Assembly: GCF_022846255.1 (NCBI RefSeq)
Contig: NZ_AP025682.1
Direction: 5' to 3' (one strand)
Origin: Escherichia coli
GTDB taxonomy: Bacteria; Pseudomonadota; Gammaproteobacteria; Enterobacterales; Enterobacteriaceae
Length of the DNA: 64,000 bases
Positions within the stretch are counted from its first letter, which is position 1. Each line of letters starts with the position of its first letter. The notes beneath the pieces were generated by a model. The model saw only the letters and a program-made list of their open reading frames with translations, did no database searches and was not told the origin of the DNA. This document shows, piece after piece, positions 18,014 through 64,000 of the stretch. The position numbers were made by a program, and so were the translations under genes.

Positions 18014-18020
18014 TGATAAA

Positions 18021-18452: not shown

Positions 18453-19994
<1,542 letters not shown>

Positions 19995-20079
19995 CCTTAA
20001 AGAAGCGTACTTTGCAGTGCTCACACAGATTGTCTGATAGAAAGTGAAAAGCAAGGCGTCTTGCGAAGCAGACTGATAC

Positions 20080-20155
20080 GTCCCCTTCGTCTAGAGGCCC
20101 AGGACACCGCCCTTTCACGGCGGTAACAGGGGTTCGAATCCCCTAGGGGACGCCA
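20080..20155 (+). tRNA. gltW: tRNA-Glu (anticodon UUC), spacer tRNA of the rRNA operon
   Basis: gtccccttcgtctagaggcccaggacaccgccctttcacggcggtaacaggggttcgaatcccctaggggacgcca; ends in encoded CCA. Confidence 0.95.
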
Positions 20156-20387
20156 AGCGTTAACTGATGAGGTCAAACCTCCCAGGGGACGCCACTTGCT
20201 GGTTTGTGAGTGAAAGTCACCTGCCTTAATATCTCAAAACTCATCTTCGGGTGATGTTTGAGATATTTGCTCTTTAAAAATCTGGATCAAGCTGAAAATT
20301 GAAACACTGAACAACGAGAGTTGTTCGTGAGTCTCTCAAATTTTCGCAACACGATGATGAATCGCAAGAAACATCTTCGGGTTGTGA

Positions 20388-23291
<2,904 letters not shown>

Positions 23292-23389
23292 ACAACGCCG
23301 AAGATGTTTTGGCGGATAGAGAGAAGATTTTCAGCCTGATACAGATTAAATCGACAGGTCATAACGAGACGTGTTGATAAAACAGAATT

Positions 23390-23509
23390 TGCCTGGCGGC
23401 CGTAGCGCGGTGGTCCCACCTGACCCCATGCCGAACTCAGAAGTGAAACGCCGTAGCGCCGATGGTAGTGTGGGGTCTCCCCATGCGAGAGTAGGGAACT
23501 GCCAGGCAT
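23390..23509 (+). rRNA. rrfG: 5S ribosomal RNA (120 nt)
   Basis: tgcctggcggccgtagcgcggtggtcccacctgaccccatgccgaactcag...gggaactgccaggcat. Confidence 0.96.
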
Positions 23510-23521
23510 CAAATTAAGCAG

Positions 23522-23548
23522 AAGGCCATCCGTCAGGATGGCCTTTTT
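23522..23548 (+). terminator. rRNA operon terminator
   Basis: ggccatcc gtca ggatggcc followed by TTTTT. Confidence 0.8.
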
Positions 23549-23831
23549 GCGCTGGTGCAGAAAAAAATGCCTAATGCGATGCTGCGCGTCTTATACTCCC
23601 ACATATGCCAGATTCAGCAACGGATACGGTTTCCCCAACTTGCCTACTTCCATACGTGTCCTCCTTACCAGAAATTTATCCTTAAGCTCCTCAATAACCA
23701 TTTTCCTGCTAACTAAATTCATGGTTAAGGTTGCATAACGATACGCAACAAATGTATAGCATTTTCTTTACCAAAAAAATAAACAACAGCGACCGACAAA
23801 AGCATCGGATTACGGCAGGAGACATAATGGC

Positions 23832-49748: not shown

Positions 49749-49954
49749 TTACCGTTAAATCATTTTAAAAATCAGTAAGTTGTATCGAGTTTGTATGCTT
49801 TACTGTCATTAACTTACTGTATGTTGATCCAGTGTATTTAACCTTGATAAACTCAGTCCAGTAACACAAAGCCGCAACACATTGCATTTTGTCCCGTAGA
49901 AAAGACTTGTATGTGTGTGCTTGTTTTCTGCGCCTACGCAGATAAGGATTGAGA

Positions 49955-51352
49955 ATGCCGCGCACTGTAACACATAATCCGGATAGCCCCAATAATGACG
50001 ATGTTTTAGCCGCATCTGAAAAATGGGACGCCTGTAAACCCCCCTATACCAGCGCACACATGAAAATCTGTGTTGCTGCCGCCAAAATCATCCTCGCTGC
50101 TTCCGGCGTGGCTCGCCGTTCCAAATACGAAAAAGAGAACTATCTCCGTATCGATTTCAGCAAAGCCGGTAAGGTTACATTTTACGCCGAGTTTCCAAAA
50201 AAGATGGGCCTCAAAGGTAAAAAGCTCGGCGAGTGGCCGGAGCTCGCTATCCAGCTGGCGCGCGAAAAAGCGCTAGGTATGGCTGACGGTGGCCTGCGGG
50301 CAGAGTCCGTACATGCAGCGCTGGAAATGTACCGGGATGACCTCAAAGCCAAAGTCGCCCGGCAGAAGCTGAGCCCGGACAGTTTCACAACCTACGGGGT
50401 GCGTATCGACCGGATTAAAGCAACGTTCGGCGAGCGCGAGGTGTTCAGCGACGTAACATACAATCGGCTGGTGGAAGTGCTGGACGAGTGGATCGCTACT
50501 CGCTCGAACAATAACGCCCTGGAGTTGTTTGCCGAGCTCCGTCGGTTCTGGAAGTTCTGCGCACCTACTCTTTGCAACGGCCGCAATGTTGCCGCCAGTC
50601 TGCCAGATGATTATGTTTCCTCCCGCGTACAGAAACCTACCCCCACACGGCTTTTTACCGATATTGAATCAATCGCCCGACTCTGGCTCAATGTTGCTGC
50701 CTGCACCTCTGTACACCAGAAGAATGCTGTTCGCTTCATGATCATCACTGGTGTTCGTCCGATTAATGTCCATAACCTGCGCTGGGACTACGTTCACGAG
50801 GAGGCTGGTGAAATTGTTTATCCGGAAGGGGTTATCGGCATGCGAGGGGCTATGAAAACACAAAAGGCTTTCCGCCTGCCGATAACCCCTGAGATCCGGC
50901 GGATTATCGACGAGCAGAAAGCCTGGCGTGATTCAGTTCCTGAGTGCAACAGGGATTATGTATTTTTGCAGCCACGTGATCCAATGCAGCCATTTTCAAA
51001 ACGATCACTGGATAAGCTGGTGAAAACATACAGCCCGGACGGGGCTGTAAAAGGAATAAAACATGATGGGACTGTTAAAGGGAAAGACGGTGCATTTAAT
51101 ACGATGTGCCGTAAATTCCTTAAGAGCAATGTTATTGCCTTGATGAAGGAAAGAGGCTATTCCCGCTCAGACCGAAGGGAAATCAGCCTCCTTTGCCTTC
51201 ACCACTCCAGCAAGTCAGATGACCCGATGGCAGAACATTACGACTTTTCTGATGAGATTTTACAGGAAGAGATTGCGTTGAAGCGCGAAGCTTTCGAGGC
51301 TCACGAGCGGAGCATACTTGCGCAGGTGGCATTGCTACGGCGGCGAGGTTAA
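49955..51352 (+). CDS. Phage-type tyrosine integrase (start uncertain: TTG 49949, ATG 49955 with AAGGA RBS, or ATG 50060)
   Basis: C-terminal catalytic-domain pattern ending ...LHHSSKSDDPMAEHYDF with the tyrosine nucleophile; arm-binding-like N-terminus; position at the element boundary. Confidence 0.85.
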   Translation: MPRTVTHNPDSPNNDDVLAASEKWDACKPPYTSAHMKICVAAAKIILAASGVARRSKYEKENYLRIDFSKAGKVTFYAEFPKKMGLKGKKLGEWPELAIQLAREKALGMADGGLRAESVHAALEMYRDDLKAKVARQKLSPDSFTTYGVRIDRIKATFGEREVFSDVTYNRLVEVLDEWIATRSNNNALELFAELRRFWKFCAPTLCNGRNVAASLPDDYVSSRVQKPTPTRLFTDIESIARLWLNVAACTSVHQKNAVRFMIITGVRPINVHNLRWDYVHEEAGEIVYPEGVIGMRGAMKTQKAFRLPITPEIRRIIDEQKAWRDSVPECNRDYVFLQPRDPMQPFSKRSLDKLVKTYSPDGAVKGIKHDGTVKGKDGAFNTMCRKFLKSNVIALMKERGYSRSDRREISLLCLHHSSKSDDPMAEHYDFSDEILQEEIALKREAFEAHERSILAQVALLRRRG

Positions 51353-51549
51353 TACTGGCTGCGACATTTTTGAATAAAAGCGTCGATATTTCGGCGCTCA
51401 TAACGAACTACTTTTGCACTGAAACGAATTGGTGCCAGGATAGCCCGATGACGATGCTTAATATTCCACTCACATAGCGTTTTCTGTGTAATACCTAACT
51501 TTTGGCATACTTCATCCGGGGTGAGTAAATCGTCGGGTTTCTCGCTCAT
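51349..51549 (-). CDS. AlpA/excisionase-family small DNA-binding protein (66 aa)
   Basis: MSEKPDDLLTPDEVCQKLGITQKTLCEWNIK HTH resembling the AlpA/Xis family; convergent with and overlapping the integrase 3-prime end. Confidence 0.7.
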   Translation of the reverse strand: MSEKPDDLLTPDEVCQKLGITQKTLCEWNIKHRHRAILAPIRFSAKVVRYERRNIDAFIQKCRSQY

Positions 51550-52940
51550 GCTATACCTCTCTTTTTCATGGCATCGAGCAGGATGTCCTGCACTGTTCGT
51601 TTTGAGTTGCGCCGCTCCATCACCATTTCATCCATAGTGTCGGCAGCAATAATGTGGTGAATAAATACCGGACGATTGTGTCCGGCCTGTATCTGCCTGG
51701 TGGGGCCGATACGTTCAATAATTTGCTGATATTGCTCCAGGTCCCACCAGTGTGAGAAAAATACCAGTATATTTCCGCCGTCCTGCATGTTCAGGCCGTG
51801 GCCCGCGCTGGCTGGGTGTGCAAAGAGAACAGGAATCTTTCCGGAATTCCAGTCGCGCAGTGTCTGTGGATCCTGGTCGAGGTGACGACCGCGAGGGAAT
51901 GCTTTAAGCAAGCGTTCAAGATCGTGTTTCCAGTGATAAGCAACCAGCACAGGTGCGCCAGCTGCTTCGGTCAGTATGCTGTCCAGCGCCTGTAGTTTGG
52001 TGTCATGCAGTTCTGACCAACTTCCGGTGTCATCTGTGTATACTGCGCCGCTGGCGATTTGCAGACACTTCAGTGTCTTTGCCGCGGCGTTCGGTGCTTC
52101 GATGCCTTCGCCATTCAGCTCGAGGAACATTTCCTTTTCCATTTCACGATACTGCTGACGGGCCTTCGGTGGCATATCCACGCGGATTACGTTATGGATG
52201 GGGTCTTTGATATCGAACCAGTCGGCCGCATCCAGCGAGAGGGTTACATCGGCTAACGCTCGCTGTATTTCACCCTGTGAGTGAGCAAAAGGCTCCAGTT
52301 TGGTCCAGCTCTGCCCCGGAAACTGTATCGAGTTGAACCAGCGTGAGGTAAACGCGCCGTAAGTGCGCCCGAGACGTTGCCCCTGGTCCACAAACCACGA
52401 TTGTCCCCACAAATCTACCAGGCCGTTCGGTGCTGGCGTACCGGTGAGATTTATCCAGCGCCGGACATACTTATGCGCCACTTTGCCCAGCGCCGCCGCG
52501 CGCTTACCACCACCGCGCAGCCGGAAGGATTTTAGCCGGGTGCTTTCATCTGGAATGACAGTACCGAACGGCCATCGTTCTCCCAATTCTTCAATCAGCC
52601 AGACAAGGTTATCGTAGTTGATGGTGAACACGCTTGCGTTGCTGTTCGTCAGCGCCATAGAGCGCGCTTTGGCATTACCAATAATTGGCTGCACCTCGAT
52701 ATTGCGCAAATGTCCCCACTTCAGTGCTTCATCCGGCCATGTGCTGGCAGCCACGCGCAGCGGCGCGAGGACCAGTGCGGGGCATGTTTCTGCCCCTGCC
52801 ATAAAGAGATCTTCCAGCGCAGTGAGCGTTGCCACGGTTTTACCCATTCCCATCCCCGCCCAGATGTTGCCGCGCAGGGTTTCGGTTTCGTGGTTGATAA
52901 TGAGATCTTGGTAGGGGCGAGGTATATATTTTGGGGGCAT
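51546..52940 (-). CDS. SNF2/DEAD-like superfamily-2 helicase (464 aa)
   Basis: Walker A GMGMGKT, DExx-like VIPDESTRL, helicase C-terminal domain; AGGAG RBS 9 nt upstream of the ATG at 52940. Confidence 0.8.
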   Translation of the reverse strand: MPPKYIPRPYQDLIINHETETLRGNIWAGMGMGKTVATLTALEDLFMAGAETCPALVLAPLRVAASTWPDEALKWGHLRNIEVQPIIGNAKARSMALTNSNASVFTINYDNLVWLIEELGERWPFGTVIPDESTRLKSFRLRGGGKRAAALGKVAHKYVRRWINLTGTPAPNGLVDLWGQSWFVDQGQRLGRTYGAFTSRWFNSIQFPGQSWTKLEPFAHSQGEIQRALADVTLSLDAADWFDIKDPIHNVIRVDMPPKARQQYREMEKEMFLELNGEGIEAPNAAAKTLKCLQIASGAVYTDDTGSWSELHDTKLQALDSILTEAAGAPVLVAYHWKHDLERLLKAFPRGRHLDQDPQTLRDWNSGKIPVLFAHPASAGHGLNMQDGGNILVFFSHWWDLEQYQQIIERIGPTRQIQAGHNRPVFIHHIIAADTMDEMVMERRNSKRTVQDILLDAMKKRGIA

Positions 52941-52961
52941 ATAATATGGCTCCTAAACAAC

Positions 52962-52983
52962 AAAAGGCCAATTTAGGCCTTTT
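52962..52983. terminator. Terminator hairpin after the cargo gene at 53003..53920
   Basis: aaaaggcc aattta ggcctttt, 8-bp stem flanked by A/T runs (reads as a terminator on both strands). Confidence 0.6.
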
Positions 52984-53002
52984 GTTGTTTTAAAAATGTT
53001 AT

Positions 53003-53920
53003 TTATAATAGTGCTGTTACTATTGCATCTTTAAAAATATTTTCTTCTTCATTTATTAAAGGTGATGACAGATGAATAATTACTTCTTTTCCTGTCAATA
53101 CTATTTGCTCGACTTGAAATCCTGCGTTGTGTAGTCTTTGGCGTAACTTTTCTAGTGCTGATTTTGATATACTAAATCCTTCACTCCTTATAGTATAACT
53201 GGCAACTCCATTTTTAATAATATCTACAGAGTTGTCAATTTCCTGCTGCGAGTAATTTTTCGGTGAGTCGAAAAATCTGGATTTTGTCGTTGCTGTTGCC
53301 CTAAGAGATATCAATAATGATTTGATATCTTTAATCTCAGATGCCAGATACTCAGTTTCTGATACTTCTTTCTGGTCTAGTTGTGCAACTTTGAAAGTGC
53401 CAAAATGTTTGAGGAATGTTGTGTATTCAGGATCAGTTACTGACTTTAAATATGTTTCTTTTATCTTGCTCGCAAGTCTTTCTTTGAATAAATTGATTGA
53501 TTGGTATCTTAAATCCGAAGGGTACTCTAAATGTTCAATTGATGAAATGTCAAAGCTATAAGGAGTGCGCTCGTCCTTAATAATTACGGTCGGTTTGTCA
53601 AATGCGAGACGCATTCCTAATTCAAACATTACATTAGCGTTTCGAGCACTTATATCGCAAACAACTATGGGGTTTTCATAAAGATTTTGAACAATTCGTT
53701 TTTGTATTACTGCAACATCATCATCTGAACTTACCAAATTTGCCTTGAATCCGGCATCATTTGATGCTTCACAAATAATGTCATGAACATTTCTCCAATG
53801 TCCAGTGGGATAACCTTCTATGTCCGCAATTGGCATAATAATGCCGCATATATGAGGTGGCATATTTTTGTTGTCTTTTACATCATCTTGGTTTATTTCT
53901 TTCGTTTGTTGCTTAGCCAT
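53003..53920 (-). CDS. Hypothetical cargo protein (305 aa) with a Rossmann-like N-terminal domain of NDT/TIR-fold appearance and an unknown C-terminal domain
   Basis: N-terminal pattern ICGIIMPIAD ... IVVCDISARNANVMFELGMRLAFDKPTVII (beta-strand, then conserved Glu in an FELG context, as in nucleoside 2-deoxyribosyltransferase/TIR-like folds); gene is conspicuously AT-rich; own terminator. Confidence 0.5.
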   Translation of the reverse strand: MAKQQTKEINQDDVKDNKNMPPHICGIIMPIADIEGYPTGHWRNVHDIICEASNDAGFKANLVSSDDDVAVIQKRIVQNLYENPIVVCDISARNANVMFELGMRLAFDKPTVIIKDERTPYSFDISSIEHLEYPSDLRYQSINLFKERLASKIKETYLKSVTDPEYTTFLKHFGTFKVAQLDQKEVSETEYLASEIKDIKSLLISLRATATTKSRFFDSPKNYSQQEIDNSVDIIKNGVASYTIRSEGFSISKSALEKLRQRLHNAGFQVEQIVLTGKEVIIHLSSPLINEEENIFKDAIVTALL

Positions 53921-53935
53921 AGCTTACACAGACTC

Positions 53936-54220
53936 CTATTGTAATTTTTTGCCTAATATACATGAAAGCTCCTTACTATCCAGTACTACCACGGTAAAGC
54001 CCAGTTTTCGCAGACGTTCATGCTCGCGCAACTGATCAGGTCGTGGTGGTTTGCCTGGTGCTTTGCATTCGACAAAGACGATGCGACCGCCGGGTAGCAG
54101 AACAATGCGATCTGGTACCGAGCGGAGACCGGGAGATACGAACTTAAAGGCAACCCCGCCAGCCTTTTTTACTTCAGCGACGAGGTGCTTTTCGATTAGG
54201 TTTTCACGTTCATAGGCCAT
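53936..54220 (-). CDS. VRR-NUC domain nuclease (94 aa)
   Basis: PD-(D/E)xK-type motif ...PDRIVLLPGGRIVFVECKAPG...; typical partner of phage SNF2 helicases. Confidence 0.75.
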   Translation of the reverse strand: MAYERENLIEKHLVAEVKKAGGVAFKFVSPGLRSVPDRIVLLPGGRIVFVECKAPGKPPRPDQLREHERLRKLGFTVVVLDSKELSCILGKKLQ

Positions 54221-54414
54221 TAGCTTTCGCCTTCCTGCTTTTTGCGTTTCTTCATGCAGATAGCGCAGTTCTCAGGATGGTCATGCCATTCGTCAATCCT
54301 GATACCTGTGAACATCCATTTTCCGCATAGTGATATGGCTTCCCCCGAATTAAAGAAATGTGCTTTTTTCGACAGGGCGGGGAACCCCCAACCTTTATTA
54401 TCGATATTAGACAT
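54220..54414 (-). CDS. Small Cys/His-containing phage protein (64 aa), possible zinc ribbon
   Basis: ...SLCGKW...HDHPENCAICMKKRKKQ; stop overlaps the VRR-NUC start. Confidence 0.45.
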   Translation of the reverse strand: MSNIDNKGWGFPALSKKAHFFNSGEAISLCGKWMFTGIRIDEWHDHPENCAICMKKRKKQEGES

Positions 54415-54602
54415 CGTCCACCTCCTTACGCTTTTCGCGCATGTTCTGCATCAGACAAAAATCAAACCGACGTTCGCTTTGGCCCAGACCTGCATCGCCC
54501 GGTCGTACCCGCTGGACTGTTCAAGGCGCAAAGCCTCCCGCGCAGTCCGGTAATAAAGCGGACTGTCCCGGTATTTAAATGACATAGGGTTTTTATTCCC
54601 AA

Positions 54603-54625
54603 ATAAAAAACCCCGCAATGCAGGG
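54603..54625 (-). terminator. Rho-independent terminator after the TIR-like gene
   Basis: Minus-strand RNA cccugc auu gcgggg (one G-U pair) followed by UUUUUU. Confidence 0.6.
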
Positions 54626-54649
54626 TTGTAATCAACAATAAGGGGGTAA

Positions 54650-55411
54650 TTACGAGGAAGCGTTAGCTATTTGAGCTTGTGTAAATTCGAAACCAGAATT
54701 TTGTAACCGTTGCACTAGACGAGGAACTGTTTCACGTACATGGTCGTTGAAATTCAGATACAAAATCCCGTTAGCATCAGAAGGCTGTTCTAGGTGCTGT
54801 TTCTGAAGGATTGCTACATTGCTGCGCCCTAAGGACGAAAGAAGCATACCCATCTCGAGTACAACGTTCTGTCTTGCGCGGGGTTGGATTTCTGCTTCAC
54901 CGGCGCGCTTTGAGTATCCCATATCATCAGGTGTCAAAAGAACAATCCCGAAACGGGTAGCAGTTTGTCCTTGCCCAATTTCACGTTCAAGCTCTTCAAT
55001 AATGGTGAGTCCAGTCCCTCCCGTATTCTGCAAAATGAAATGGTCTGGTAATCCAAGTTTATGAAGGATTAGCTCAAGTTGTTCCTTTGCAGTATGGTCA
55101 TGGCCGTGAACAATGAATATCTTTTTGGGAAGCTCAGATGGCTGTTCTACGGCTAGTGGTGTTGCCGTGGGGGGCGTTCCTAAATGGGACATTATTGCAG
55201 TTTCAACATTGGGACGTTCTTGAGGGTTACCTTGAAACTGAATGGTCCGGGTGGTGTAAAGGTTAACAATTACGCCATTCGTTAAACGATAGCAGTCATA
55301 AGTCTCACGCTGTTCGTGGGAAAAATTGGTGAACCCACACTCCCTCAAAAAGTCAGGAAAAGATTCTCTCGGGTATGGATAGGTGATCGGCATTTCAGTT
55401 AGTTCCTGCAT
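54650..55411 (-). CDS. TIR-like nucleotide-binding domain protein (253 aa), Cap12-like TIR-like family with an unknown about 80-aa N-terminal domain
   Basis: KIFIVHGHDHTAKEQLELILHKLGL ... FGIVLLTPDDMGY ... RARQNVVLEMGMLLSSLGRSNVAIL, matching my recollection of the 'predicted nucleotide-binding protein containing TIR-like domain' family (PF10137); AAGGA RBS; own terminator. Confidence 0.65.
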   Translation of the reverse strand: MQELTEMPITYPYPRESFPDFLRECGFTNFSHEQRETYDCYRLTNGVIVNLYTTRTIQFQGNPQERPNVETAIMSHLGTPPTATPLAVEQPSELPKKIFIVHGHDHTAKEQLELILHKLGLPDHFILQNTGGTGLTIIEELEREIGQGQTATRFGIVLLTPDDMGYSKRAGEAEIQPRARQNVVLEMGMLLSSLGRSNVAILQKQHLEQPSDANGILYLNFNDHVRETVPRLVQRLQNSGFEFTQAQIANASS

Positions 55412-55475
55412 AAGTATTGTTCCTTTAATTTACTCGAATTCAGCATGTCGCCATAGCTCGATAAGGTGAGTTATA

Positions 55476-57551
55476 TCAATCTTTTTTGTAGTGGTACGCC
55501 TCAAAGCCGCCAGCGTTCAGCGGAATATCGGGTGCCCATTCGGGGTTAGTGGAGAGAAGCGCGGAAAGCGCTTTATCGTTGAAATCTTCTGTGTCTGGTG
55601 CTTCGGTGATCACCTCGTCGTGTACCGTTAGCACAATGCTGTAACCGGCACCCTCGATCAGCGGCATGTTTCTGGCCAGAACGTCGCGGGCGGCCGCCTG
55701 GGTGACGTTCTCCACCAGCTTTCCGCCGTAGGTTTTGAGTCGTTGCCATTTACGCGAATAAGAGTTAACACCCATGTAGGTGATATTCCCTTGTTCGATA
55801 ACCGGAGACGGGTAGCATACAGCGCGTCCGGATGGTAGCTGTATGCGCAGCCACGCGCCATCACGTCGGATTTTAAGATAGCCGCAATACAATGTTTTTT
55901 GCGGTGTGGCGATTGCTGTGCGGACAGTGCGCTCCAGCTCGTACCAGAAATCGCAGGTCGCCGGGTGCGCCCTGCGCCACAGGCGCTTGAGCGAGTCACA
56001 TGCGATGAATACACGCTCGGACAGGCCAAAGGTCGACTTACGCTTAACCGATTCGTCGTACCAGCTTTTTGCCTCGCGGATAACATCGCGGGGAATGTTT
56101 GGCAGTGCGGCGTTCGCCAGCTCGTCGAGATCGAGACCGTAAACCAGAGCAAAAGTGATGAAAGCCGATACACCACCTCCATAACCCAGACCGAGTTCCA
56201 TGACTTTACCGATCTGACGCATGTGTTTATCAACATCATCTGGTGCAATATCGAAAGCTTTTGCATACGCCAGTTTATATAAGTCCGGACCCGTTCCAGC
56301 GTCATACTCTCTGAATGCATTCAGTTTCCATTCTTCTCCCGCCAGCCATGCCAGCATACGGCCTTCAATGTTTGACAAGTCACTTACCACTAGTTTTTTG
56401 CCTGTTGGCGCGATAATGCAGCCACGTAACGCTGAACTGGTTAGTTCCATGATATTGTCAAACAGCAGGTCTGCACATCCGGCTTTCAGTGCTTCGATGC
56501 CTTCGTCTATTTGTTCCTGTTTTAGTGAAGGGCGGGGAAGGTTCTGGGGCTGGAATAGCCGTCCGGCCCAACGACCGGTACGTGACGCCCCGCAGAACTG
56601 TAGCGTACCGCGTAAGCGCCCGTCGTGGCTTACGCCTTTCATCAGTGCCTTGTATTTACTGGTGCTGGTAGTACTGGCTTGCAGGCGGATAGCCAGCAGT
56701 TCTTTCACGGCAGATGATAAATCGGGGTCGGCCATACGACGTTCCAGGGTACTGCGTTGCATGTCTGGTAGCTCCACACCGTAGGATTCAACGATGTGCT
56801 TAATCAACGCGTCCCGTTGTGTGGCTGCCTGCACTTCGCCATCAGTCATTTCCTGTGTACGCTTTGCTAGGCGCTTTTGCTCCTGGTCTACCGCTTCGAT
56901 CGCAGCGCGCGCGAGTTGCATGTCCATGCAGACGCCCCGGTCGTTGATCTGCTGATCACGATGCCAGAGCGCCAGCTCTGTCCCCTGATAATTCCACTTC
57001 GGCAGACGTTTATAGACTTCGCGCATTGCCTCGATATCCAGTCCGGCGTAAGCAACAAAGCGCCGCCATTCTTCCGGGTGGGTTTTGCTGGTGGCACGGC
57101 GCAGTTTGCTGTTTTTCGGGCGGGGCTTACAGAACAGCTGGATCAGCGCTTTACCTTCTTTGTCCTTCGCTTTGTCTTGCGGGACGCCGAGTATTTCGCA
57201 GAGTTCCCCCAGAGACCCCGGGAGACCGTGCGCCAGCGCCTGCACCATTGTGTCTCGCCAGCGTTTGGCGCTACCTGCAACAACGCATTGGGGAGTGTGC
57301 AGCAATGCATGGCGCAACATGGTGCGATCGAAATGGCTGTTGTGTGCATATATTAGTACGCTCTCATCGCTGAGAGCTGTCAGTAGTCGTGTCGGCAAGT
57401 TATAGTCTGTGGTTAAATCGTGTACGCTGACGGGGTCTTCGTCGATTGCCCATGCGAATAACATGATTTCGACTCCTTCTGCATAGACATGGGTGCCGTT
57501 TTTTATTGGGATTTCGCTGAAAGTTTCGAGGTCTAACCAAAGTTTTTGCAT
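55476..57551 (-). CDS. Phage family-A DNA polymerase with N-terminal 3-5 exonuclease (start at ATG 57551; track ORF extends to a TTG at 57593)
   Basis: Exo I motif LDLETFSE near the N-terminus, Exo-like [12 protein letters not shown], polymerase motif [14 protein letters not shown]-type motif YGGK. Confidence 0.85.
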
Positions 57552-57580
57552 CAAGTAAGGACCCGTTGGATTTAATAAAT

Positions 57581-57607
57581 AAAAAGCCGCCAAAATGGCG
57601 GCTTTTT
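57581..57607 (-). terminator. Rho-independent terminator after the SIR2-like gene
   Basis: Minus-strand aaaagccgcc atttt ggcggctttt followed by a U-rich tract. Confidence 0.65.
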
Positions 57608-57627
57608 ATAACCGAAGTTAAGAATGC

Positions 57628-59130
57628 TTAATATGATAAATAATCATACAAGCATAAAAGTCGCCTGTATTGGGTATCAATTTTATGCCCTGGTTTTGTT
57701 AAATAATCTCGTAGTTGTTTCAATGAAATAGTATCGTTTAGTACGCAATACATAATCGTGTTAGCAACTTTATACTCTTTCGTTTCTTTTAGTATTTCAT
57801 CAATAGACACAGCCTCACTCTTACATGTTTTAATTCGAGAAAGGTTACCAATGATTTTATCTAGCTGCCGTTTTCTGTATGTCTCGGTATTTTCTAGTTC
57901 AGGGCAGATAGAACTAAAAGCGTATATTGGAAAGTGTTCGCTATTAGCTATGGTTTGCTTATTCAGTAATGCGATAAGCTGAGAGTTTGCTTCGTCAACT
58001 ATTTTAAAATAGTTCTGTATCATTTCAGATTTTGTTTGATAAACATATTGTACGGTTCTTTCTGAACCAACAGCAATGACCATTTCATCATTGCGAAGTT
58101 CATCTAAATTTTCTGTAATTTTAACCTTTATCTCACCACCACTTTTGATGGTACTCCAAACTTTTTGAACCTTTCTTATGTCCATTGCGGATACTGGCAA
58201 AACTAGTCCCGAGATGGCATCATATACAGCTTTGTAATTGTTTGTTTTTATTTTGTTTATTCTTATGATAGACATGCCTTCTATATCTATGTCATGCTCC
58301 GTAATTTCAGTTGACATGCTGTCTTTTTCGTATTCAACCAAAAGAAAATTATCTTTTATCCTTTTTGCAAGTTCGGTATTTAAGTCAACGTATGAGAATA
58401 TGGTTTTTAATAAGTACTTAATGTTTTTATCGCTAATACTATACCCTATAAATATGATAGGGTTGTGTATGAATATTGAGAGTAATTGAGCGCGAATTAA
58501 CTCATATTTATTGTCGAAGTTTGCGTAGTCTTCACCTGTGATAATTATGTTGTTAGGATCACTAACACAGCCATGTATTTTGTAAACTGAACCGTATGGG
58601 TTACTTAAAAGAATGTTATTACCAATCAGTGGGTTAAATTCGAAGATGTTCTCTACGAGTTGGTCGTAGTTTGTTGTAATGATGGAGCCTATGTTTTTTC
58701 TTGTTTTTATTAAGCTGTTTATTTCCTCCATCATTGACTCTTTTATCTTTAGGTCTTTAAGTATTGAAGTTAAATAAATTTTGAATCGACTTAGTTTTTT
58801 TCCTTTTTTCATGTGCTCATAGAAAACATCATTGATGTCTTTGAACTTACCGTTACGATCTTCTGCCAGCTTTTTATTAAAAATATCTTCAAGTTTTGTA
58901 GCTAAGATATCATATCGATAGTCGTCACCTTCTAGGCTTTCAGCTTTCAAATCGTAGTAAAACTCAGCATTACCGGTTAGTTCCATTGCGACACTCAAAA
59001 GAAGACCATCCCAGCTAAATGAGTTTTCTAGATACCGTAGGCTAAATCCTGTTCCAATGAATAGAACAGGGTGGTTTTTATAGTGACTTACAAACTCTTG
59101 GATTTCCATACCGATTCTCAAAGTTGACAC
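57628..59130 (-). CDS. SIR2-like (sirtuin-fold, SIR2_2-type) protein, 500 aa, with an about 250-aa C-terminal domain of unknown type
   Basis: Motifs PVLFIGTGFS, SIITTNYD, YKIHGC and IIFIGYSISD, in the order seen in defence-associated SIR2 domains; GTG start at 59130 with AGAGG RBS (first ATG at 59109); roughly 30% GC by hand count versus about 50% in flanking polymerase; own terminator. Confidence 0.75.
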   Translation of the reverse strand: MSTLRIGMEIQEFVSHYKNHPVLFIGTGFSLRYLENSFSWDGLLLSVAMELTGNAEFYYDLKAESLEGDDYRYDILATKLEDIFNKKLAEDRNGKFKDINDVFYEHMKKGKKLSRFKIYLTSILKDLKIKESMMEEINSLIKTRKNIGSIITTNYDQLVENIFEFNPLIGNNILLSNPYGSVYKIHGCVSDPNNIIITGEDYANFDNKYELIRAQLLSIFIHNPIIFIGYSISDKNIKYLLKTIFSYVDLNTELAKRIKDNFLLVEYEKDSMSTEITEHDIDIEGMSIIRINKIKTNNYKAVYDAISGLVLPVSAMDIRKVQKVWSTIKSGGEIKVKITENLDELRNDEMVIAVGSERTVQYVYQTKSEMIQNYFKIVDEANSQLIALLNKQTIANSEHFPIYAFSSICPELENTETYRKRQLDKIIGNLSRIKTCKSEAVSIDEILKETKEYKVANTIMYCVLNDTISLKQLRDYLTKPGHKIDTQYRRLLCLYDYLSY

Positions 59131-59220
59131 GTAATACCTCTATAAAAACAAATAGCCGTAAAAATTCCAATAGCTTTTTGGATCTCGCCCGGTGTGTAAC
59201 CGGGCGTCTATGAAGAAGGG

Positions 59221-59769
59221 TTAAATCAGTGCTTCAGCATCAGCACCTTCGCTGATATCGTCGAAATCGTCAGCGCTTGCCACTCCGCCGCCAGCGAATG
59301 CATCGCCGTCTCGCAGGAACTGGACTCCGCCGAGTGAGGCATTAATGCGTTTACCGAAATTATTGTCCTGTGCCCAGATATCGATAACGGCGTTTACATA
59401 GCACCCTGCATAGGGACGTCCATCAGCCTGAATTAGTGGCGAACGATCGCGATCAAGAACAGCTGGGCGCGCTTTGTTAGCAGCGTTCAGGAAGAAATTG
59501 CCGGGAAAACCTTCATACTCTGCTTTTTCATCACCATCATGCAGGCACAGATTGAGTTTTTTCTCCAGCTGGTTATAAATGGACTCCCACTTCTCCCCCC
59601 ATTTTTCCTTCGCTACCTGCTTCATAGCTTTACGGATTTCTTCCAGTTGTGGGTGTTTGGGAGACATTAAAAATACTGCGGAGAAACGCGGATCGCCTTC
59701 GCCGTTTACAGTTTTAGCTTCAAACAGAGACGGGAAGGCCAGACGAACATTGTTCAACTTCAGTTTCAT
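59221..59769 (-). CDS. Phage ssDNA-binding protein (DUF2815-like, 182 aa)
   Basis: MKLKLNNVRLAFPSLFEAK N-terminus and acidic C-terminal tail (DDFDDISEGADAEALI), typical of phage SSBs. Confidence 0.7.
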   Translation of the reverse strand: MKLKLNNVRLAFPSLFEAKTVNGEGDPRFSAVFLMSPKHPQLEEIRKAMKQVAKEKWGEKWESIYNQLEKKLNLCLHDGDEKAEYEGFPGNFFLNAANKARPAVLDRDRSPLIQADGRPYAGCYVNAVIDIWAQDNNFGKRINASLGGVQFLRDGDAFAGGGVASADDFDDISEGADAEALI

Positions 59770-59784
59770 GGGTATTTCCTTAAA

Positions 59785-61086
59785 TCAGATGAGGTCTGCG
59801 GTTAGCGTATCGTCGGATACGTCGTCGAAATCATTTACAGGGTTGATATTGAGTGCGGGGCGTGGGTCTGACTCGGGAACGACGGTGGGTTTACCATCAG
59901 CTCGTGTTATCAGTGCCTCGACTTTTGACCAACGGCGCGGACTGGCCTTTTTGATAAGTTTTTCGGCTTTTGTGGGACTAATAAGTTTAAAGTCGAATAC
60001 TTCTTCAGTTTTGTACCTGAACTGGTCCTTCAGAAGTGCGCGAGCTGCCTCTTCATCACTCCAGGCCCGGTTACCTTGTTTTCCTGTTACCAGTTTAAAC
60101 CCCGGTACCGAATGTCCGGCATTGAGTTCATTGTGAACCCGGTCCCGTACTTCCTTTAGCCAGGATTCAATAAAGTCGGCCTGGCTATAGATCTCCGCAA
60201 GCTGCTCAATGGTTAACAGAGGTACACGTGCGCTGGCATTGGTGATTATTTCGCTGACAGGCTTTGTCAGATCTTCAAAGTCGCTGGCCGCTGTTTGTAA
60301 ATGCTGCATTTTCTGGGCAGTGCAAATAGCTTTTGCTTTACAGAAGCGGCACTGTTTTTCTCCAGGTATGAATTTTTCCAGCGGTAGTGTCTCAATGCCT
60401 TCGCATTCAGCAATATTGAGAACAAGCATCGCACTGGTTGCGGCCTCCTGTGCCCGTTCACCGAAAGACTGAAGTTCCTGCACGGTTAACGACCATTCTG
60501 AAACGTGGTTGAGCCTTGGCTGGTGAATAAATAATCTTACAGTCTCAAAGTCATACAGCATGCTGAATTGTTCGAGCGCACCCAGAGCATACAGTTGTAG
60601 TTGCTCATTTTGTTCTGCATCAATGCGGACGCCTTTGCCATATTTCAGGTCGTGGATTTGTAATTCGTTACCAGCGATGATTATGCCGTCGGCAGTTCCG
60701 AAAGATTCTTCCACACCCGTTATATGTGAGAAATCAACACGTTGTTCAACCAATAGTTCATTATTCTTTGCAAGAGTCCAGACCGTATCAACATACCGGC
60801 CGACGGCTTCGACCATTTCATCATCCACCTGTGGGCCAGATGTATCATCAGGATTTTCGCGAAGGGGGTATGAGCCGAGAAACATAGAAACATTGCATCC
60901 GGCGTAGTGTTCCGGGTGGCTTTGCCTGTTTCGTAGAACTTTTTCAGCAAGCGCGTGCGCTGCAGTGCCCTCGATTGCAAAAGTTGTTTCTTTATCCGGT
61001 TGTGTGGCCTCCAGCGCCAGACTTCCTGGGCAGCGCATCCATCGATGCGCTGATGATGGAGAAAGTTGTGCATGAACGTCTGGCAT
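59785..61086 (-). CDS. Phage PD-(D/E)xK nuclease (DUF2800-like, 433 aa)
   Basis: N-terminal [15 protein letters not shown] motif and C-terminal Cys cluster ([10 protein letters not shown]); acidic tail. Confidence 0.7.
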
Positions 61087-61088
61087 GA

Positions 61089-61991
61089 TTAACCCTCCAG
61101 TGCTTTTTCAGCCAGGGTGATTACTTCAGCGAGATTTTCATCCGTTACTTCACCAAGTTTCCTGGCTCCCTGTTTTTCCAGAATTGCAATAGCTTCTGCC
61201 CGGTAACCCCCTTTTGCTAACTGGAGGATCAACCCTTCAGCTTGTTTGCGTAGTGCCGCGAAATCAATTGTATGGTCATCTTTGGCGTCATTATTCTGGC
61301 TGGAATTTGCTGCGTCTCTGCGTGCAAATTCTTCCTGCAGCTGAAGGTACTCAACACGGTTGATCTCGATATGGCCTTTTTTCAGCATCTCGTTCAACTT
61401 GCGTAAGGTGTGGAGTTCACTGGCTGCTGTGCCGGATACATTTTTGACGTAAAACGGCCCCGTGCGTTCTCCATCTTTGTTACTGGCCTTTTTCGGCTTA
61501 ACTTCATCACGCCCATCCGCAGGTGCATCAAGTAGCTGCTCGGCAAAAGCACGTCGCTCGCCGATGGTTGGCAGGTCGTCCCAGAACTTAAGGATGTTAC
61601 GGGACAGGTCCAGGAGAGCAGGTTTAAGCAGCGCCCTGGCTCGTTTGACGCCCTGCAATGCGCTGTCGAGAGCATCAATCTGAACTACTCGTTTATCGCC
61701 TTCAGCATCACGGTAGGCAACAGCACGTTGCAGCATGTCTTCTGTGATAGGGGTGGCTACCGGGTAGAAACCCGCCAGTGCGATAACGTCGCTGAACTCC
61801 AGATCATCCAGTGTCATTGCCGCTGACATATTTTCAGTTTCAGTTGCTGTATCCCGACATTCCTGCACTCGTGAAATCGTGTCAGGATGCATAACAATGC
61901 CTGATGCCATTGTGCGGATAAGACGTTCAAGCAGCGCATTATGTTGTGCCAGAAGTTGATTATTAAGTTCTAGACTGGTTTCTAAACTCAT
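61089..61991 (-). CDS. Hypothetical phage protein (300 aa)
   Basis: ORF in operon upstream of the DUF2800 gene; no motif recognised. Confidence 0.5.
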
Positions 61992-62170
61992 ACTGTGGTC
62001 CTCGCTACAAGGAGAATGAAAGTGATGATCAGACCGAGCGCAGTGGCAACGGCCAGACCGGTCATCAAATCGAAGTTTTTACGGCGATAACGGAGAACAT
62101 CGCGCCCCGTCAGTCGATGGATGTGTTCAGGTTTCATCGGTTGTATTCCTTTTTTCATATCGGGGAGCAC
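61988..62170 (-). CDS. Small hypothetical membrane protein (60 aa)
   Basis: One predicted TM helix (LAVATALGLIITFILLV); stop overlaps the next gene. Confidence 0.4.
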   Translation of the reverse strand: MLPDMKKGIQPMKPEHIHRLTGRDVLRYRRKNFDLMTGLAVATALGLIITFILLVARTTV

Positions 62171-62253
62171 GCTGTTGCGAGTGCGCTTTCAGACATAAAA
62201 AAGCCCGTCACTTGAGGCGGGCAAAGACTACACACAGCAATTACATGGATGAT

Positions 62254-62448
62254 TCAGTTGGTATTGTGCGTACGTGGTACCACAAGGTTGAAGCGGACAC
62301 GCCAGTGCGTTGCAATGGTATGCAGGAAAGCACCACATCCAGGGCAGTGCTCATAACATTCGTTGATTTGGTATCGTTTTGGCTTTGGTGTCAGAAGCTG
62401 TGTTTGGCAAGCAGGGCATTCACCTTTGAGCGGTTTATACGTTTTCAC
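62254..62448 (-). CDS. Small Cys-rich phage protein (64 aa), possible zinc finger
   Basis: CPACQ ... CYEHCPGCG; first gene of the leftward operon. Confidence 0.45.
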   Translation of the reverse strand: MKTYKPLKGECPACQTQLLTPKPKRYQINECYEHCPGCGAFLHTIATHWRVRFNLVVPRTHNTN

Positions 62449-62717
62449 GCCGTTTCCTCATTCAGTTCACTTTGGTGGTTCGGCGGCTTCGACTTGTATC
62501 AGTAGACAGTGCTTCGCCGCACCCCAAAGGGAACTTACTGACCCGTATTGCCGACATCCTGTCCCGCCACGGTCCCGACGCATGGTTTAGAGTCGCGCCG
62601 TTCGACTTGTGGTTTAAATATCTGTGTATAGATATCTTAACTTTACGCGTATAGTTAAGACTTCTAAACTCACAAAGTCAAGTGTTGAGGTTAAGAAAAG
62701 TGAACTTTTTCGGATAG

Positions 62718-62746
62718 GTAAAGAAAAGCCCGCTTAGGAAGCGGGC
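62718..62746 (-). terminator. Terminator after the CI-like repressor gene
   Basis: Minus-strand gcccgcuu ccu aagcgggc followed by UUUUCUUU. Confidence 0.6.
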
Positions 62747-62770
62747 ATGTGGTATAGAGTGAATTTACGC

Positions 62771-63463
62771 TCAGAGCAGAACGGAGTACCAAAATACTTG
62801 GCCTATAATCCTGATTTTATTAGCCTCTTGATTAAAATACTCTTCGTCTGCGTATTCATCCCTATTGAAAGAGCGTATCCGGAGTCCGCTTGGGAGACGG
62901 TACAATAGTTTGACACGAAGTAATCCGTCTTGGTCTATGGCGTACATTTGACCATCTTTTACACCTGTTTTTGATGTATCTATGCCGACGACAGCGCCAT
63001 CCGGTAATACCGGTTCCATGCTGTTGCCGTGGATGCTGACACAAGCCGCACAATTTACGTCAACACCTGCTTTGCGCAACGTTGAACGGGCGAATCTTAA
63101 CTTACATCCCATTCGATCTATATCAACATAAGTACCATTACCGGCAGATAGCTCAATTTCCTGATAGAACGGTATTTCCACTTCATCATCCTCTAATGGC
63201 GTTGATGAGTCCCATACAGAAAACCCTCCCTCAACTTGTGCATTAGAATGTATTTCTTTGGTATCGCTTGTTTTGCCTGAAAGTAGCCACTCTGGAGAAA
63301 CGTTCAATGCTTCGGCCAGATTTATAAGATTTTTCCCGTTAGGTGTGGTGTTTCCGGATTCCCATTGTGAAATCGTGGCTTTAGTTAGACCAATACGTTT
63401 AGCAAGCGCATCCTGCGTTAGGTGGACATTGCGACGAGCCTCGCGAATACGATCATTAATCAT
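62771..63463 (-). CDS. CI-like repressor (HTH_XRE plus S24 LexA-like peptidase domain, 230 aa)
   Basis: N-terminal HTH LTQDALAKRIGLTKATISQWESG; C-terminal S24-like region with GNSMEP (Ser nucleophile) and a downstream Lys; GAGG RBS. Confidence 0.8.
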   Translation of the reverse strand: MINDRIREARRNVHLTQDALAKRIGLTKATISQWESGNTTPNGKNLINLAEALNVSPEWLLSGKTSDTKEIHSNAQVEGGFSVWDSSTPLEDDEVEIPFYQEIELSAGNGTYVDIDRMGCKLRFARSTLRKAGVDVNCAACVSIHGNSMEPVLPDGAVVGIDTSKTGVKDGQMYAIDQDGLLRVKLLYRLPSGLRIRSFNRDEYADEEYFNQEANKIRIIGQVFWYSVLL

Positions 63464-63576
63464 GGTTTTACCCTCATATAGTTTAGTTAGCTTAACTTAA
63501 TCAGGGTATCGCTTTCTTGACTTGTTGGTTTAGTTTTCTTAACCTCATATAACCATATATTTCCTGGGTAACGGTT
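63464..63576. promoter_or_regulatory. Divergent promoter/operator region of the CI-like / Cro-like switch
   Basis: 113-bp AT-rich intergenic region between divergent repressor genes, with near-palindromic elements such as agttagcttaact. Confidence 0.5.
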
Positions 63577-63762
63577 ATGAAAAAAGCAGAAGCAATTGAG
63601 CTTGCAGGAAGTAAAGCGAAACTAGCGAGACTATTGAAGGTTTCCAAAGGAGCCGTATCTCAATGGGGGGAGGAAATCCCAGAGTTAAGAGCTCTTCAAC
63701 TTGAAAAGATTTTGGAGCAAAAAAATGTAGTCAAACAAAAAGGCTTAACCCATGTCCGATAG
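63577..63762 (+). CDS. Cro/YdaS-like small HTH protein (61 aa)
   Basis: LAGSKAKLARLLKVSKGAVSQW HTH; divergent from the CI-like gene. Confidence 0.7.
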   Translation: MKKAEAIELAGSKAKLARLLKVSKGAVSQWGEEIPELRALQLEKILEQKNVVKQKGLTHVR

Positions 63763-64000
63763 CAAACCATGGGGAGCTACGCCTGATGAGTGGTTTCATT
63801 TTGACCTGGTATTGGGGAGAACTGATCATCTTCTGCCAGTTGTATGTAACCCCGGTGCGACCATATCCCCTGATAGTAAACTGAAAGCGTTGGGTAAGAC
63901 GCCGAGTCGCTATAACCGGGACCGCCAGGTCACCGGTATTGCTCAATGGACCGGGCATGTTGTTACTGAGCATGATTTTGCCCGCTGGTCGAATGAACCG
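63752..64000 (+). CDS. Hypothetical phage protein, N-terminal fragment (continues beyond the window); possibly replication/primase-related
   Basis: ATG at 63752 opens MSDSKPWGATPDEWFHFDLVLGRTDHLLPVV... with no stop before the window end; overlaps the Cro-like stop. Confidence 0.45.
   Translation, partial: MSDSKPWGATPDEWFHFDLVLGRTDHLLPVVCNPGATISPDSKLKALGKTPSRYNRDRQVTGIAQWTGHVVTEHDFARWSNEP

What the first reader, a model, noticed from the sequence alone, without database searches (positions are those of the whole stretch)
54650..55411. Stand-alone TIR-like domain protein with an unknown N-terminal domain, own RBS and terminator
The C-terminal region (KIFIVHGHDH ... IVLLTPDD ... RARQNVVLEMGMLLSSLGR) fits my recollection of the TIR-like family typified by the CBASS effector Cap12, whose conserved Glu sits in the ELG context. 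Here it is not next to a cyclase; it sits between a phage polymerase and a VRR-NUC nuclease. The about 80-residue N-terminal domain (…TYDCYRLTNGVIVNLYTTRTIQFQG…) is unassigned. It could be an abortive-infection effector, a Thoeris-like signal producer, or a phage-encoded counter-defence (signal sponge or NAD salvage).
Basis: partly seen in the sequence, partly recalled or inferred. Interest (0 to 1): 0.8.

Follow-up and report, generated by a model that had tools for sequence, protein, structure and literature searches.

The report
Prophage single-gene TIR NADase defence candidate
This is a real 253-residue gene, an optional cassette in an E. coli prophage, that joins a small fast-evolving sensor-like domain to a highly conserved NAD-cleaving TIR domain; it most likely acts as a one-protein anti-phage suicide switch, but the family is already listed as an untested defence candidate, so it is a moderately interesting find.

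Summary
The ORF, its motifs, ribosome-binding site and terminator are exactly as described (54650..55411, minus strand). Residues 97-222 match Pfam PF10137, the Cap12/PycTIR TIR domain (E=4.5e-31). The whole protein matches the PADLOC candidate PDC-S35 (E=1e-108). The residues that align with the SfSTING NADase site (R78, N80, E84 and in-trans D110) are R180, N182, E186 and D212, and all four are invariant.

It is not Cap12, PycTIR or ThsB. It has no STING or cNMP domain, no cyclase lies nearby, and it never co-occurs with the nearby SIR2 gene in 5426 complete E. coli genomes.

The gene is an 896-bp insertion found in 36 of the 158 genomes that carry this prophage polymerase. It sits in a different slot in a Salmonella prophage, is a single attC-flanked cassette in a Vibrio superintegron, and also occurs on an integrative element.

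Best reading (about 0.55): a self-contained abortive-infection NADase whose TIR domains switch on by oligomerising when the variable N-domain meets a phage cue.

Activity, trigger and expression in lysogens are untested, and no own promoter is detectable. I found no experimental paper. Interest 0.4.

The parts
54650..55411 (-). TIR cassette ORF, 253 aa. It has a TBP-like N-domain (residues 8-78), a disordered linker (80-94) and a PF10137 TIR domain (97-253).
   Evidence: ORF list. Pfam PF10137, 4.5e-31. PADLOC PDC-S35 model PDLC05003, 1.3e-108, full length. phrog_16442. AF2 models.
55178..55390 (-). [quoted passage not shown]
54653..55123 (-). Coding region for the TIR (Cap12/PycTIR-type) effector domain, residues 97-253. 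It contains HGHD 102-105, TPDD 160-163, R180/N182/E186 and D212.
   Evidence: Invariant columns in alignment A1. Alignment to SfSTING 7un8. Active-site residues from PMC9402430. Foldseek top hits are TIR-STING 9lmq and 7un8.
54609..54627 (-). Intrinsic-terminator-like hairpin followed by a T-run, closing the cassette.
   Evidence: The Serratia and Salmonella cassettes also carry a hairpin after the stop codon.
55412..55487 (-). 5' leader of the cassette, including the AAGGAA ribosome-binding site. No recognisable sigma-70 promoter.
   Evidence: Sequence. Promoter scans negative. The RBS block TTAAAGGAACA is conserved in the Serratia cassette.
54592..55487 (.). Full extent of the inserted accessory cassette (about 896 bp), relative to related prophages that lack it.
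   Evidence: blastn against the TIR-less prophages L015, L016 and L017. Homology stops at window 54591 and resumes at 55488, whereas those two points are 10 bp apart in L016/L017, the ANR-adjacent arrangement (L015 has an extra small ORF there) (annotation).

Best explanation
The gene is an optional, self-contained cassette in a temperate E. coli phage integrated beside yfhL. It encodes a one-protein immune-type switch. The C-terminal Cap12/PycTIR-type TIR domain is an NAD+ glycohydrolase whose active site is completed in trans by a neighbouring TIR domain. It should therefore be silent as a monomer and active only when the protein oligomerises. The small, fast-evolving N-terminal TBP-like domain is the sensor or regulator. 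On meeting a phage-derived cue it would release autoinhibition or scaffold the TIR domains side by side. That cue could be a phage protein, as for SpbK, or an RNA/DNA duplex, as for the homologous RNase HIII N-domain. NAD+ is then depleted and the infected cell stops supporting phage growth (abortive infection).

Shown here: the domain identities, conservation of the active-site residues, the accessory and mobile single-gene nature of the cassette, and its independence from any partner gene.

Inferred: NADase activity, activation by oligomerisation, the sensor role of the N-domain, and the anti-phage phenotype.
For: 1. TIR identity. Pfam PF10137 4.5e-31. PDB sequence hits are only Cap12 and PycTIR. 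Foldseek top hits are TIR-STING 9lmq/7un8/9lmr and the SPARTA TIR.

2. Catalytic competence. SfSTING R78, N80, E84 and the in-trans D110 (PMC9402430) align to R180, N182, E186 and D212. All four are invariant across 36 homologues from Enterobacterales, Vibrio, Halomonadaceae, Guyparkeria and Acidobacteriota.

3. Sensor/effector asymmetry. The TIR domain has 72% mean pairwise identity and the N-domain 35%, with a hypervariable linker. Three of the five PDC-S35 HMMs match only the TIR half, so other subfamilies carry different N-termini.

4. The N-domain is a TBP-like fold, a type already seen fused to the defence effectors RnlA/LsoA HEPN and Schlafen (PMC3710099; PMC13056530). One AFDB protein pairs it with a protein described as deoxycytidylate deaminase.

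5. Autonomous, mobile unit.
- It is an 896-bp insertion in 36 of the 158 complete E. coli genomes that carry this prophage polymerase.
- It occupies the same slot in a Serratia prophage and the other variable slot in a Salmonella prophage.
- It is a single attC-flanked cassette in a V. parahaemolyticus superintegron.
- It lies next to an integron-type integrase beside Mrr and PemK genes, and on a V. cholerae integrative element.
- No partner gene is conserved.

6. PADLOC lists the family as a defence candidate found embedded in BREX, DISARM or type I RM loci (10.1101/2024.01.29.577857).

7. Precedent. SpbK is a single-gene, MGE-borne protein with an N-terminal sensor and a TIR NADase, and it is activated by a phage portal protein (PMC11984713).
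Against: There are no experimental data for this family in the searchable literature. PDC systems are untested predictions.

No sigma-70-like promoter lies upstream. The gene sits inside the phage early-left (replication) operon 65 bp after the polymerase gene. It may therefore be expressed mainly during lytic growth rather than in the lysogen, which fits classical prophage-encoded host defence less well.

The N-domain is near neutral to acidic (net charge -6 to +4). Only 2 of the 5 RNA/DNA-contact residues of Ta-RNase H3 are conserved, so the trigger is unknown.

The AF2 confidence for the TIR domain is only moderate (pLDDT 55-87).

TIR-like and NDT-like folds can also cleave other N-glycosidic bonds, so NAD+ as the substrate is an inference.
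Confidence: 0.55

Rival explanations
1. The gene serves the phage itself. Expressed from the early-left operon during lytic growth, the TIR enzyme would remodel or destroy host NAD-derived immune signals, or manipulate NAD+ pools. That is counter-defence or host takeover rather than host defence.
For: The gene lies inside the replication/early operon, 65 bp downstream of the DNA polymerase gene, with no detectable promoter of its own. It is packaged in induced phages vB_EcoM-611R5, 689R2 and 606R2. Two other NAD/nucleotide-enzyme-like accessory genes (a SIR2 gene and a TIR/NDT-like 305-aa gene) sit in the same operon.
Against: The same protein family occurs as promoterless integron cassettes, on an integrative element, and beside IS elements in chromosomes with no phage around. 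PADLOC found it embedded in defence loci. Its active site is that of the cell-killing Cap12 NADase. In the literature read here no anti-defence protein was described as using this TIR type.
Confidence: 0.15
2. The protein is a Thoeris-like signal producer. The TIR domain would make a cADPR-type second messenger that activates the SIR2-family protein encoded 2.2 kb away (57628..59130).
For: The SIR2 protein matches PADLOC ThsA models over its SIR2 domain (3.6e-18) and lies in the same operon.
Against: In 5426 complete E. coli genomes the TIR gene is in 36 and the SIR2 gene in 4, with no overlap. Strain 21KM1392 carries SIR2 without TIR, and WP3-W18-ESBL-08 carries TIR without SIR2. The TIR domain is the Cap12/PycTIR effector type, not ThsB PF08937. 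Pfam finds only a SIR2_2 domain in the SIR2 protein, with no SLOG or Macro signal sensor. Each gene is a separate PADLOC single-gene candidate (PDC-S35 and PDC-S25). The TIR gene also travels alone as an integron cassette.
Confidence: 0.04
3. The protein is an N-glycosidase acting on a substrate other than NAD+, for example nucleotides, (d)NMPs or nucleic-acid ends. It would be guided to RNA/DNA hybrids or replication intermediates by the TBP-like domain.
For: The TIR fold is related to nucleoside 2-deoxyribosyltransferases and CMP N-glycosidases; BcmB 4jen appears among the Foldseek hits. The N-domain's closest relatives bind RNA/DNA hybrids. The cassette sits in a replication module.
Against: The residues that bind the NAD+ phosphodiester and ribose in SfSTING (R78, N80) and the in-trans Asp are all retained. 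The closest sequence and structure relatives are the Cap12 and PycTIR effectors; NAD+ cleavage by Cap12/SfSTING was confirmed here from PMC9402430. The N-domain is not basic, and only 2 of 5 hybrid-contact residues are kept.
Confidence: 0.1

Closest known systems
CBASS effector Cap12 (TIR-STING; SfSTING, PDB 7un8 and 9lmq)
   Same: Same Pfam TIR family, PF10137. It is the best sequence and structure match in the PDB. The catalytic Glu, the Arg/Asn of the NAD+ pocket and the in-trans Asp are all conserved, which implies an oligomerisation-dependent NADase.
   Different: This protein has no STING domain and no CD-NTase operon. The NCBIfam Cap12 equivalog scores 34.8 bits against a cut-off of 450. 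The domain order is reversed, with the sensor N-terminal and the TIR C-terminal. The sensor is a TBP-like fold rather than a cyclic-dinucleotide receptor.
Pycsar effector PycTIR (PDB 8jsj)
   Same: C-terminal PF10137 TIR domain preceded by an N-terminal regulatory domain. PADLOC PycTIR model hit at 1e-8 over the TIR half.
   Different: No cyclic-nucleotide-binding domain and no pyrimidine cyclase neighbour. The N-domain belongs to a different fold class.
SpbK of Bacillus subtilis ICEBs1 (PMC11984713)
   Same: Works alike in outline. SpbK is a single gene carried by a mobile element, about 250-270 aa, with an N-terminal sensing region and a C-terminal TIR NADase. It causes abortive infection and is activated by direct binding of a phage component.
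   Different: Homology was not tested here because no SpbK sequence was at hand. The SpbK trigger (portal protein YonE) and the fold of its N-terminal region are not known to match. The host phylum is different.
RNase HIII N-terminal domain and RnlA/LsoA NTD/NRD (TBP-like fold)
   Different: Here the domain is fused to a TIR rather than to an RNase H or HEPN domain. Only Tyr43 and Gly52 of the five RNA/DNA-contact residues of Ta-RNase H3 are conserved. The net charge is neutral to acidic.
PADLOC phage defence candidate PDC-S35
   Same: Full-length match to model PDLC05003 (E=1.3e-108, positions 3-245 of 245). This gene is a member of that family.
   Different: There is no difference in family. 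PDC-S35 is a guilt-by-embedding prediction without published phenotype or mechanism.

Membership tests
Pfam PF10137 (CAP12/Pycsar effector TIR domain) | Significant full-length match to the family HMM | tested here: met
   i-Evalue 4.5e-31, model positions 1-118 of 119, residues 97-222.
Pfam PF10137 (CAP12/Pycsar effector TIR domain) | Catalytic Glu on helix alpha-C, plus NAD+-pocket Arg/Asn and the in-trans Asp (SfSTING R78, N80, E84, D110) | tested here: met
   These align to R180, N182, E186 and D212. All are invariant in alignment A1. Residue roles come from PMC9402430.
Pfam PF10137 (CAP12/Pycsar effector TIR domain) | NAD+ glycohydrolase activity | not testable with these tools
   Requires a biochemical assay.
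CBASS Cap12 (TIR-STING) | NCBIfam equivalog score above the curated cut-off | tested here: not met
   NF050171 scores 34.8 bits against a cut-off of 450, and the match covers the TIR core only.
CBASS Cap12 (TIR-STING) | Fused STING cyclic-dinucleotide receptor domain | tested here: not met
   The only other domain is the N-terminal TBP-like fold.
CBASS Cap12 (TIR-STING) | Operon with a CD-NTase | tested here: not met
   The neighbours are the DNA polymerase A gene and the ANR, 64-aa and VRR-NUC genes. No cyclase is annotated in the whole phage genome.
Pycsar PycTIR | N-terminal cNMP-binding domain and an adjacent pyrimidine cyclase | tested here: not met
   No cNMP-binding domain in Pfam and no cyclase neighbour. 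The PADLOC PycTIR hit covers only the TIR half.
Thoeris ThsB | ThsB-type TIR domain and obligatory pairing with a signal-activated effector gene | tested here: not met
   No PF08937 hit. There is zero co-occurrence with the nearby SIR2 gene in 5426 genomes. The gene travels as a single integron cassette.
PADLOC PDC-S35 | Full-length match to a PDC-S35 HMM as a single-gene system | tested here: met
   PDLC05003 E=1.3e-108, residues 10-253 against profile positions 3-245 of 245.
PADLOC PDC-S35 | Demonstrated anti-phage phenotype | not testable with these tools
   No paper was found. PDCs are predictions.
TBP-like fold domain (RNase HIII N-domain / RnlA NRD type) | Strand-helix-four-strand-helix topology and structural match | tested here: met
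TBP-like fold domain (RNase HIII N-domain / RnlA NRD type) | Sequence-level homology to the family profiles | tested here: inconclusive
   The hits are weak but concordant. Profile against PDB: LsoA E 0.018, RNase HIII E 0.027 and 0.95. Pfam RnlA_toxin matches 9 of 28 members at E<=0.1 (best 9e-5), and DUF3378 matches 2 of 28.
TBP-like fold domain (RNase HIII N-domain / RnlA NRD type) | RNA/DNA-hybrid contact residues (Ta-RNase H3 E27, H28, R32, Y43, G52) | tested here: inconclusive
   Only Y43 and G52 have conserved equivalents, Y52 (aromatic in all members) and G61 (invariant). Net charge is -6 to +4.

The most novel reading that the evidence does not exclude
The TBP-like domain is a nucleic-acid pattern receptor. 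By analogy with the RNase HIII N-domain, it would line up along RNA/DNA hybrids or replication intermediates made by an invading or replicating phage. The nucleic acid would then act as a template that brings the TIR domains into an active NADase filament. This would be a protein-only, guide-free route from foreign nucleic acid to TIR activation, distinct from SPARTA, and its modular sensor would be shared with the RnlA and Schlafen effectors.
Probability: 0.15. Interest if true: 0.7.

Novelty: new member of a known kind. Interest (0 to 1): 0.4.

Why it matters
If confirmed, this would give function and mechanism to a very widespread, uncharacterised family of about 250-residue proteins. More than 2700 clusters were found, spanning several bacterial phyla. 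The family would show that the Cap12/PycTIR effector TIR can work without any second-messenger pathway. It would also add the TBP-like fold to the small list of sensor modules shared between HEPN, Schlafen and TIR effectors.

The prophage family is itself useful. Its replication operon has at least three slots that hold swappable accessory genes (TIR, SIR2, a TIR/NDT-like gene, DUF4145, methyltransferases). That makes it a natural place to look for further defence genes, much like the P2/P4 hotspots.

E. coli IAI1 carries the gene, so a standard strain is available for testing.

Tried and rejected
1. A single-sequence search of the N-domain against 1.84 billion representatives found only 4 hits: fragments and one spurious repetitive protein, P0124. 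This gave nothing on alternative architectures.

2. A profile search with the N-domain alignment in the 5.8-billion database returned only short ORFs and fragments with no Pfam domains. It did not reveal other effector fusions. The AFDB50 fold search was more useful.

3. I looked for a small upstream partner gene. Such genes are seen in V. cholerae (86 aa) and in some integron copies (70-74 aa). None is present in the window, in Serratia, or in L009/L010, so this was rejected as a conserved partner.

4. I looked for an own promoter using the tool scan and a relaxed custom scan (at least 8 of 12 matches). None was found within 300 bp.

5. Literature searches for PDC-S35, the RefSeq protein accession, PF10137, TBP-like plus TIR, and prophage TIR NADase found no paper on this family. 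The systematic TIR survey by Yirmiya et al. explicitly discarded stand-alone TIR proteins.

6. I considered Cap12, PycTIR and ThsB membership and rejected each on a defining feature (see the membership table).

7. I considered linkage to the 305-aa TIR/NDT-like gene. It is present in only 23 of the 36 TIR-carrying genomes and absent from the Serratia and Salmonella cassette contexts, so it is not a partner.

Full report
**1. Observation**

The ORF at 54650..55411 (minus strand, 253 aa) exists exactly as described and contains all the quoted peptides. AAGGAA lies 8 nt upstream of the ATG. A GC-rich hairpin followed by a T-run lies at 54627..54609.

The gene sits between a family-A DNA polymerase gene (55476..57593) and a VRR-NUC gene (53936..54220). 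A 64-aa ORF and a degenerate ANR-regulator ORF lie in between. Met7 is an alternative start that some homologues use.

**2. Where the window comes from**

The first 49 kb or so of the window is E. coli chromosome, ending with lepA-lepB-rnc-era-recO-pdxJ-acpS-yfhL. From the integrase gene (49949..51352) onward it is the left arm of a temperate phage.

The same prophage has been sequenced as the induced phages vB_EcoM-611R5, 689R2 and 606R2. The target lies in the long leftward early operon: DUF2800 nuclease, DUF2815 ssDNA-binding protein, DNA polymerase A, VRR-NUC, SNF2 helicase.

**3. The C-terminal domain**

- Pfam gives PF10137, the CAP12/PycTIR TIR domain, over residues 97-222 with E=4.5e-31.
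- The only PDB sequence hits are Cap12 (7un8, 9lmq) and PycTIR (8jsj).
- The AF2 model's best Foldseek matches are TIR-STING and the SPARTA TIR.
- Morehouse et al. define the SfSTING NADase pocket as R78 and N80 (phosphodiester and ribose), the catalytic E84, and D110 contributed by the opposite TIR domain (PMC9402430).
- In the HMMER alignment these fall on R180, N182, E186 and D212. All four are invariant in 36 homologues drawn from distant taxa.

The in-trans Asp implies that activity needs TIR-TIR assembly. This step is an inference.

**4. The N-terminal domain**

It folds with high confidence (pLDDT about 92) as strand-helix-four strands-helix.

- A profile of 28 N-domains hits the LsoA NRD (E 0.018) and RNase HIII (E 0.027 and 0.95) in the PDB. 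All align on the shared Y-x-T/S-G-x-x-x-x-Q-G hairpin.
- Pfam RnlA_toxin matches 9 of 28 members at E<=0.1.

This is therefore a TBP-like fold of the RNase HIII / RnlA type. The same module is already known to be fused to HEPN (PMC3710099) and Schlafen (PMC13056530) defence effectors.

Whether it binds nucleic acid is open. Of the five RNA/DNA contacts in Ta-RNase H3 (E27, H28, R32, Y43, G52; PMC4132731), only Tyr43 and Gly52 have conserved equivalents (Y52 and G61). The domain's net charge runs from -6 to +4.

**5. Evolutionary pattern**

More than 2700 homologous clusters were found. Most are about 250 aa and have the same two-domain layout.

Across the 36-sequence alignment the TIR domain has 72% mean pairwise identity (minimum 60%). 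The N-domain has 35% (minimum 15%), and the linker is hypervariable. Three of the five PDC-S35 HMMs match only the TIR half, which indicates alternative N-termini on the same effector. AFDB50 shows the N-domain mainly in about 250-aa TIR proteins from Proteobacteria, Bacteroidota and Firmicutes. It also appears as stand-alone 70-95-aa ORFs, and once in a protein described as deoxycytidylate deaminase.

A conserved effector joined to a diversifying sensor is the usual signature of an immune receptor.

**6. Accessory, mobile, single-gene unit**

- This polymerase is found in 158 complete E. coli genomes, but the TIR gene in only 36 of them.
- In TIR-less relatives the polymerase gene is followed directly by the ANR gene, as in ETEC H10407 and FWSEC0003, or by one small ORF and then ANR, as in 21KM1392.
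- blastn places the insertion at window 54592..55487, an 896-bp block replacing about 10 bp. The ANR gene is frameshifted in carriers.
- A Serratia prophage has the cassette in the same slot, with the same RBS block and its own terminator.
- A Salmonella prophage has it in the other variable slot, between the ssDNA-binding protein gene and the polymerase gene.
- In V. parahaemolyticus it is one cassette of a superintegron. It is bounded by attC-type repeats at L018 6891-6982 and 7770-7890, within an array of 21 repeats.
- Another lineage lies beside an integron-type integrase with Mrr and PemK cassettes.
- In V. cholerae it lies on an integrative element near an AAA_13 ATPase gene.
- In Guyparkeria it lies next to IS elements.

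No partner gene is conserved across these contexts.

**7. Relation to the neighbouring SIR2 gene and the 305-aa gene**

The SIR2 protein (57628..59130; PDC-S25, E=4e-158; Pfam SIR2_2 only) occurs in 4 complete genomes. None of these is among the 36 with the TIR gene. The window's combination of the two is therefore unusual, and they are separate cassettes rather than a Thoeris-like pair.

The 305-aa gene (53003..53920) has weak TIR/NDT-like signals and occurs in 23 of the 36 TIR-carrying genomes.

**8. Classification**

It is not Cap12: the NCBIfam equivalog scores 34.8 against a cut-off of 450, there is no STING domain, and there is no CD-NTase. It is not PycTIR or ThsB. It is a full-length member of the PADLOC candidate family PDC-S35.

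That family was defined by embedding in BREX, DISARM or type I RM loci and has not been tested (10.1101/2024.01.29.577857). The recent systematic TIR survey excluded stand-alone TIR proteins. No paper on the family was found.

**9. Mechanism**

Most likely (about 0.55) this is a self-contained abortive-infection NADase. The TBP-like domain would sense a phage cue and trigger TIR oligomerisation. This is functionally analogous to SpbK (PMC11984713) and to Cap12 without the signalling step.

The main caveat is expression. There is no recognisable promoter, and the gene lies inside the early lytic operon. A phage-serving role or an inter-phage competition role therefore remains possible (about 0.15). 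A non-NAD substrate is possible (about 0.1). The Thoeris-like reading is essentially excluded.

**10. Verdict**

The finding is real and correctly identified as a Cap12-type TIR protein. The N-domain is now assigned as a TBP-like fold. The family is already catalogued as a defence candidate but is uncharacterised. Novelty: a new member of a known kind. Interest: 0.4.

Noticed in passing
window 57628..59130 (-): A 500-aa SIR2-family gene, a full-length match to PADLOC PDC-S25 (E=4e-158). Pfam finds only SIR2_2 at residues 149-246, so the C-terminal 250 residues are unassigned. GC is 0.33 against about 0.53 in the flanking genes. It occurs in only 4 of 5426 complete E. coli genomes, never together with the TIR gene, and in one of them it is interrupted by IS1.
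   Followed up: partly
window 53003..53920 (-): A 305-aa low-GC (0.34) accessory gene between the VRR-NUC and SNF2 helicase genes. Its N-terminal half gives weak TIR/nucleoside-deoxyribosyltransferase-like signals: PADLOC TIR effector 1e-6, Pfam PF05014 at 0.2 and PF10137 at 0.22, and phrog_3634. It may be a second, divergent TIR-like defence candidate. Related prophages hold a DNA cytosine methyltransferase gene in this slot.
   Followed up: partly
window 57594..59220, and loci L001, L011, L016, L022: The slot between the DUF2815 ssDNA-binding protein gene and the DNA polymerase gene is a variable hotspot. It holds SIR2 here, a 630-bp opposite-strand unknown gene in most E. coli, a DUF4145 gene in Serratia, and Nmad5 / TIR / DUF2335 / Bro-N genes in Salmonella. 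The replication operon of this prophage family has at least three such slots.
   Followed up: partly
window 54451..54618 (-): A remnant of an ANR-family regulator gene immediately downstream of the cassette terminator. RefSeq annotates it as frameshifted in TIR-carrying prophages, whereas it is intact in TIR-less relatives. The insertion and its terminator may have relaxed selection on it.
   Followed up: partly
AFDB and protein hits, e.g. P0123, A0A4P7KZ93, A0A3B0LUT9: Stand-alone ORFs of 70-95 aa consisting only of the TBP-like N-domain occur in Arsenophonus, Neisseria, Sphingomonas and metagenomes. They could be decay remnants of TIR genes or free-standing regulators or decoys. I did not distinguish between these.
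   Followed up: no
AFDB S6UY75: A 527-aa Pseudomonas syringae protein described as deoxycytidylate deaminase carries a structurally similar N-domain (TM-score 0.74 normalised to the query). This suggests the sensor module is also paired with a nucleotide-depleting effector.
   Followed up: no
window 18014..23831: No ORF of 150 aa or more is found for 5.8 kb after an 861-aa ClpB-sized ORF (15428..18013). This is consistent with a ribosomal RNA operon (rrnG in E. coli K-12). It was not verified with the RNA tools.
   Followed up: no
whole prophage arm, window 49949..64000: The combination of the TIR, SIR2 and 305-aa genes seen in this window is not present in any of the 5426 complete E. coli genomes searched. 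The window therefore comes from a strain carrying a recombinant version of this prophage.
   Followed up: partly
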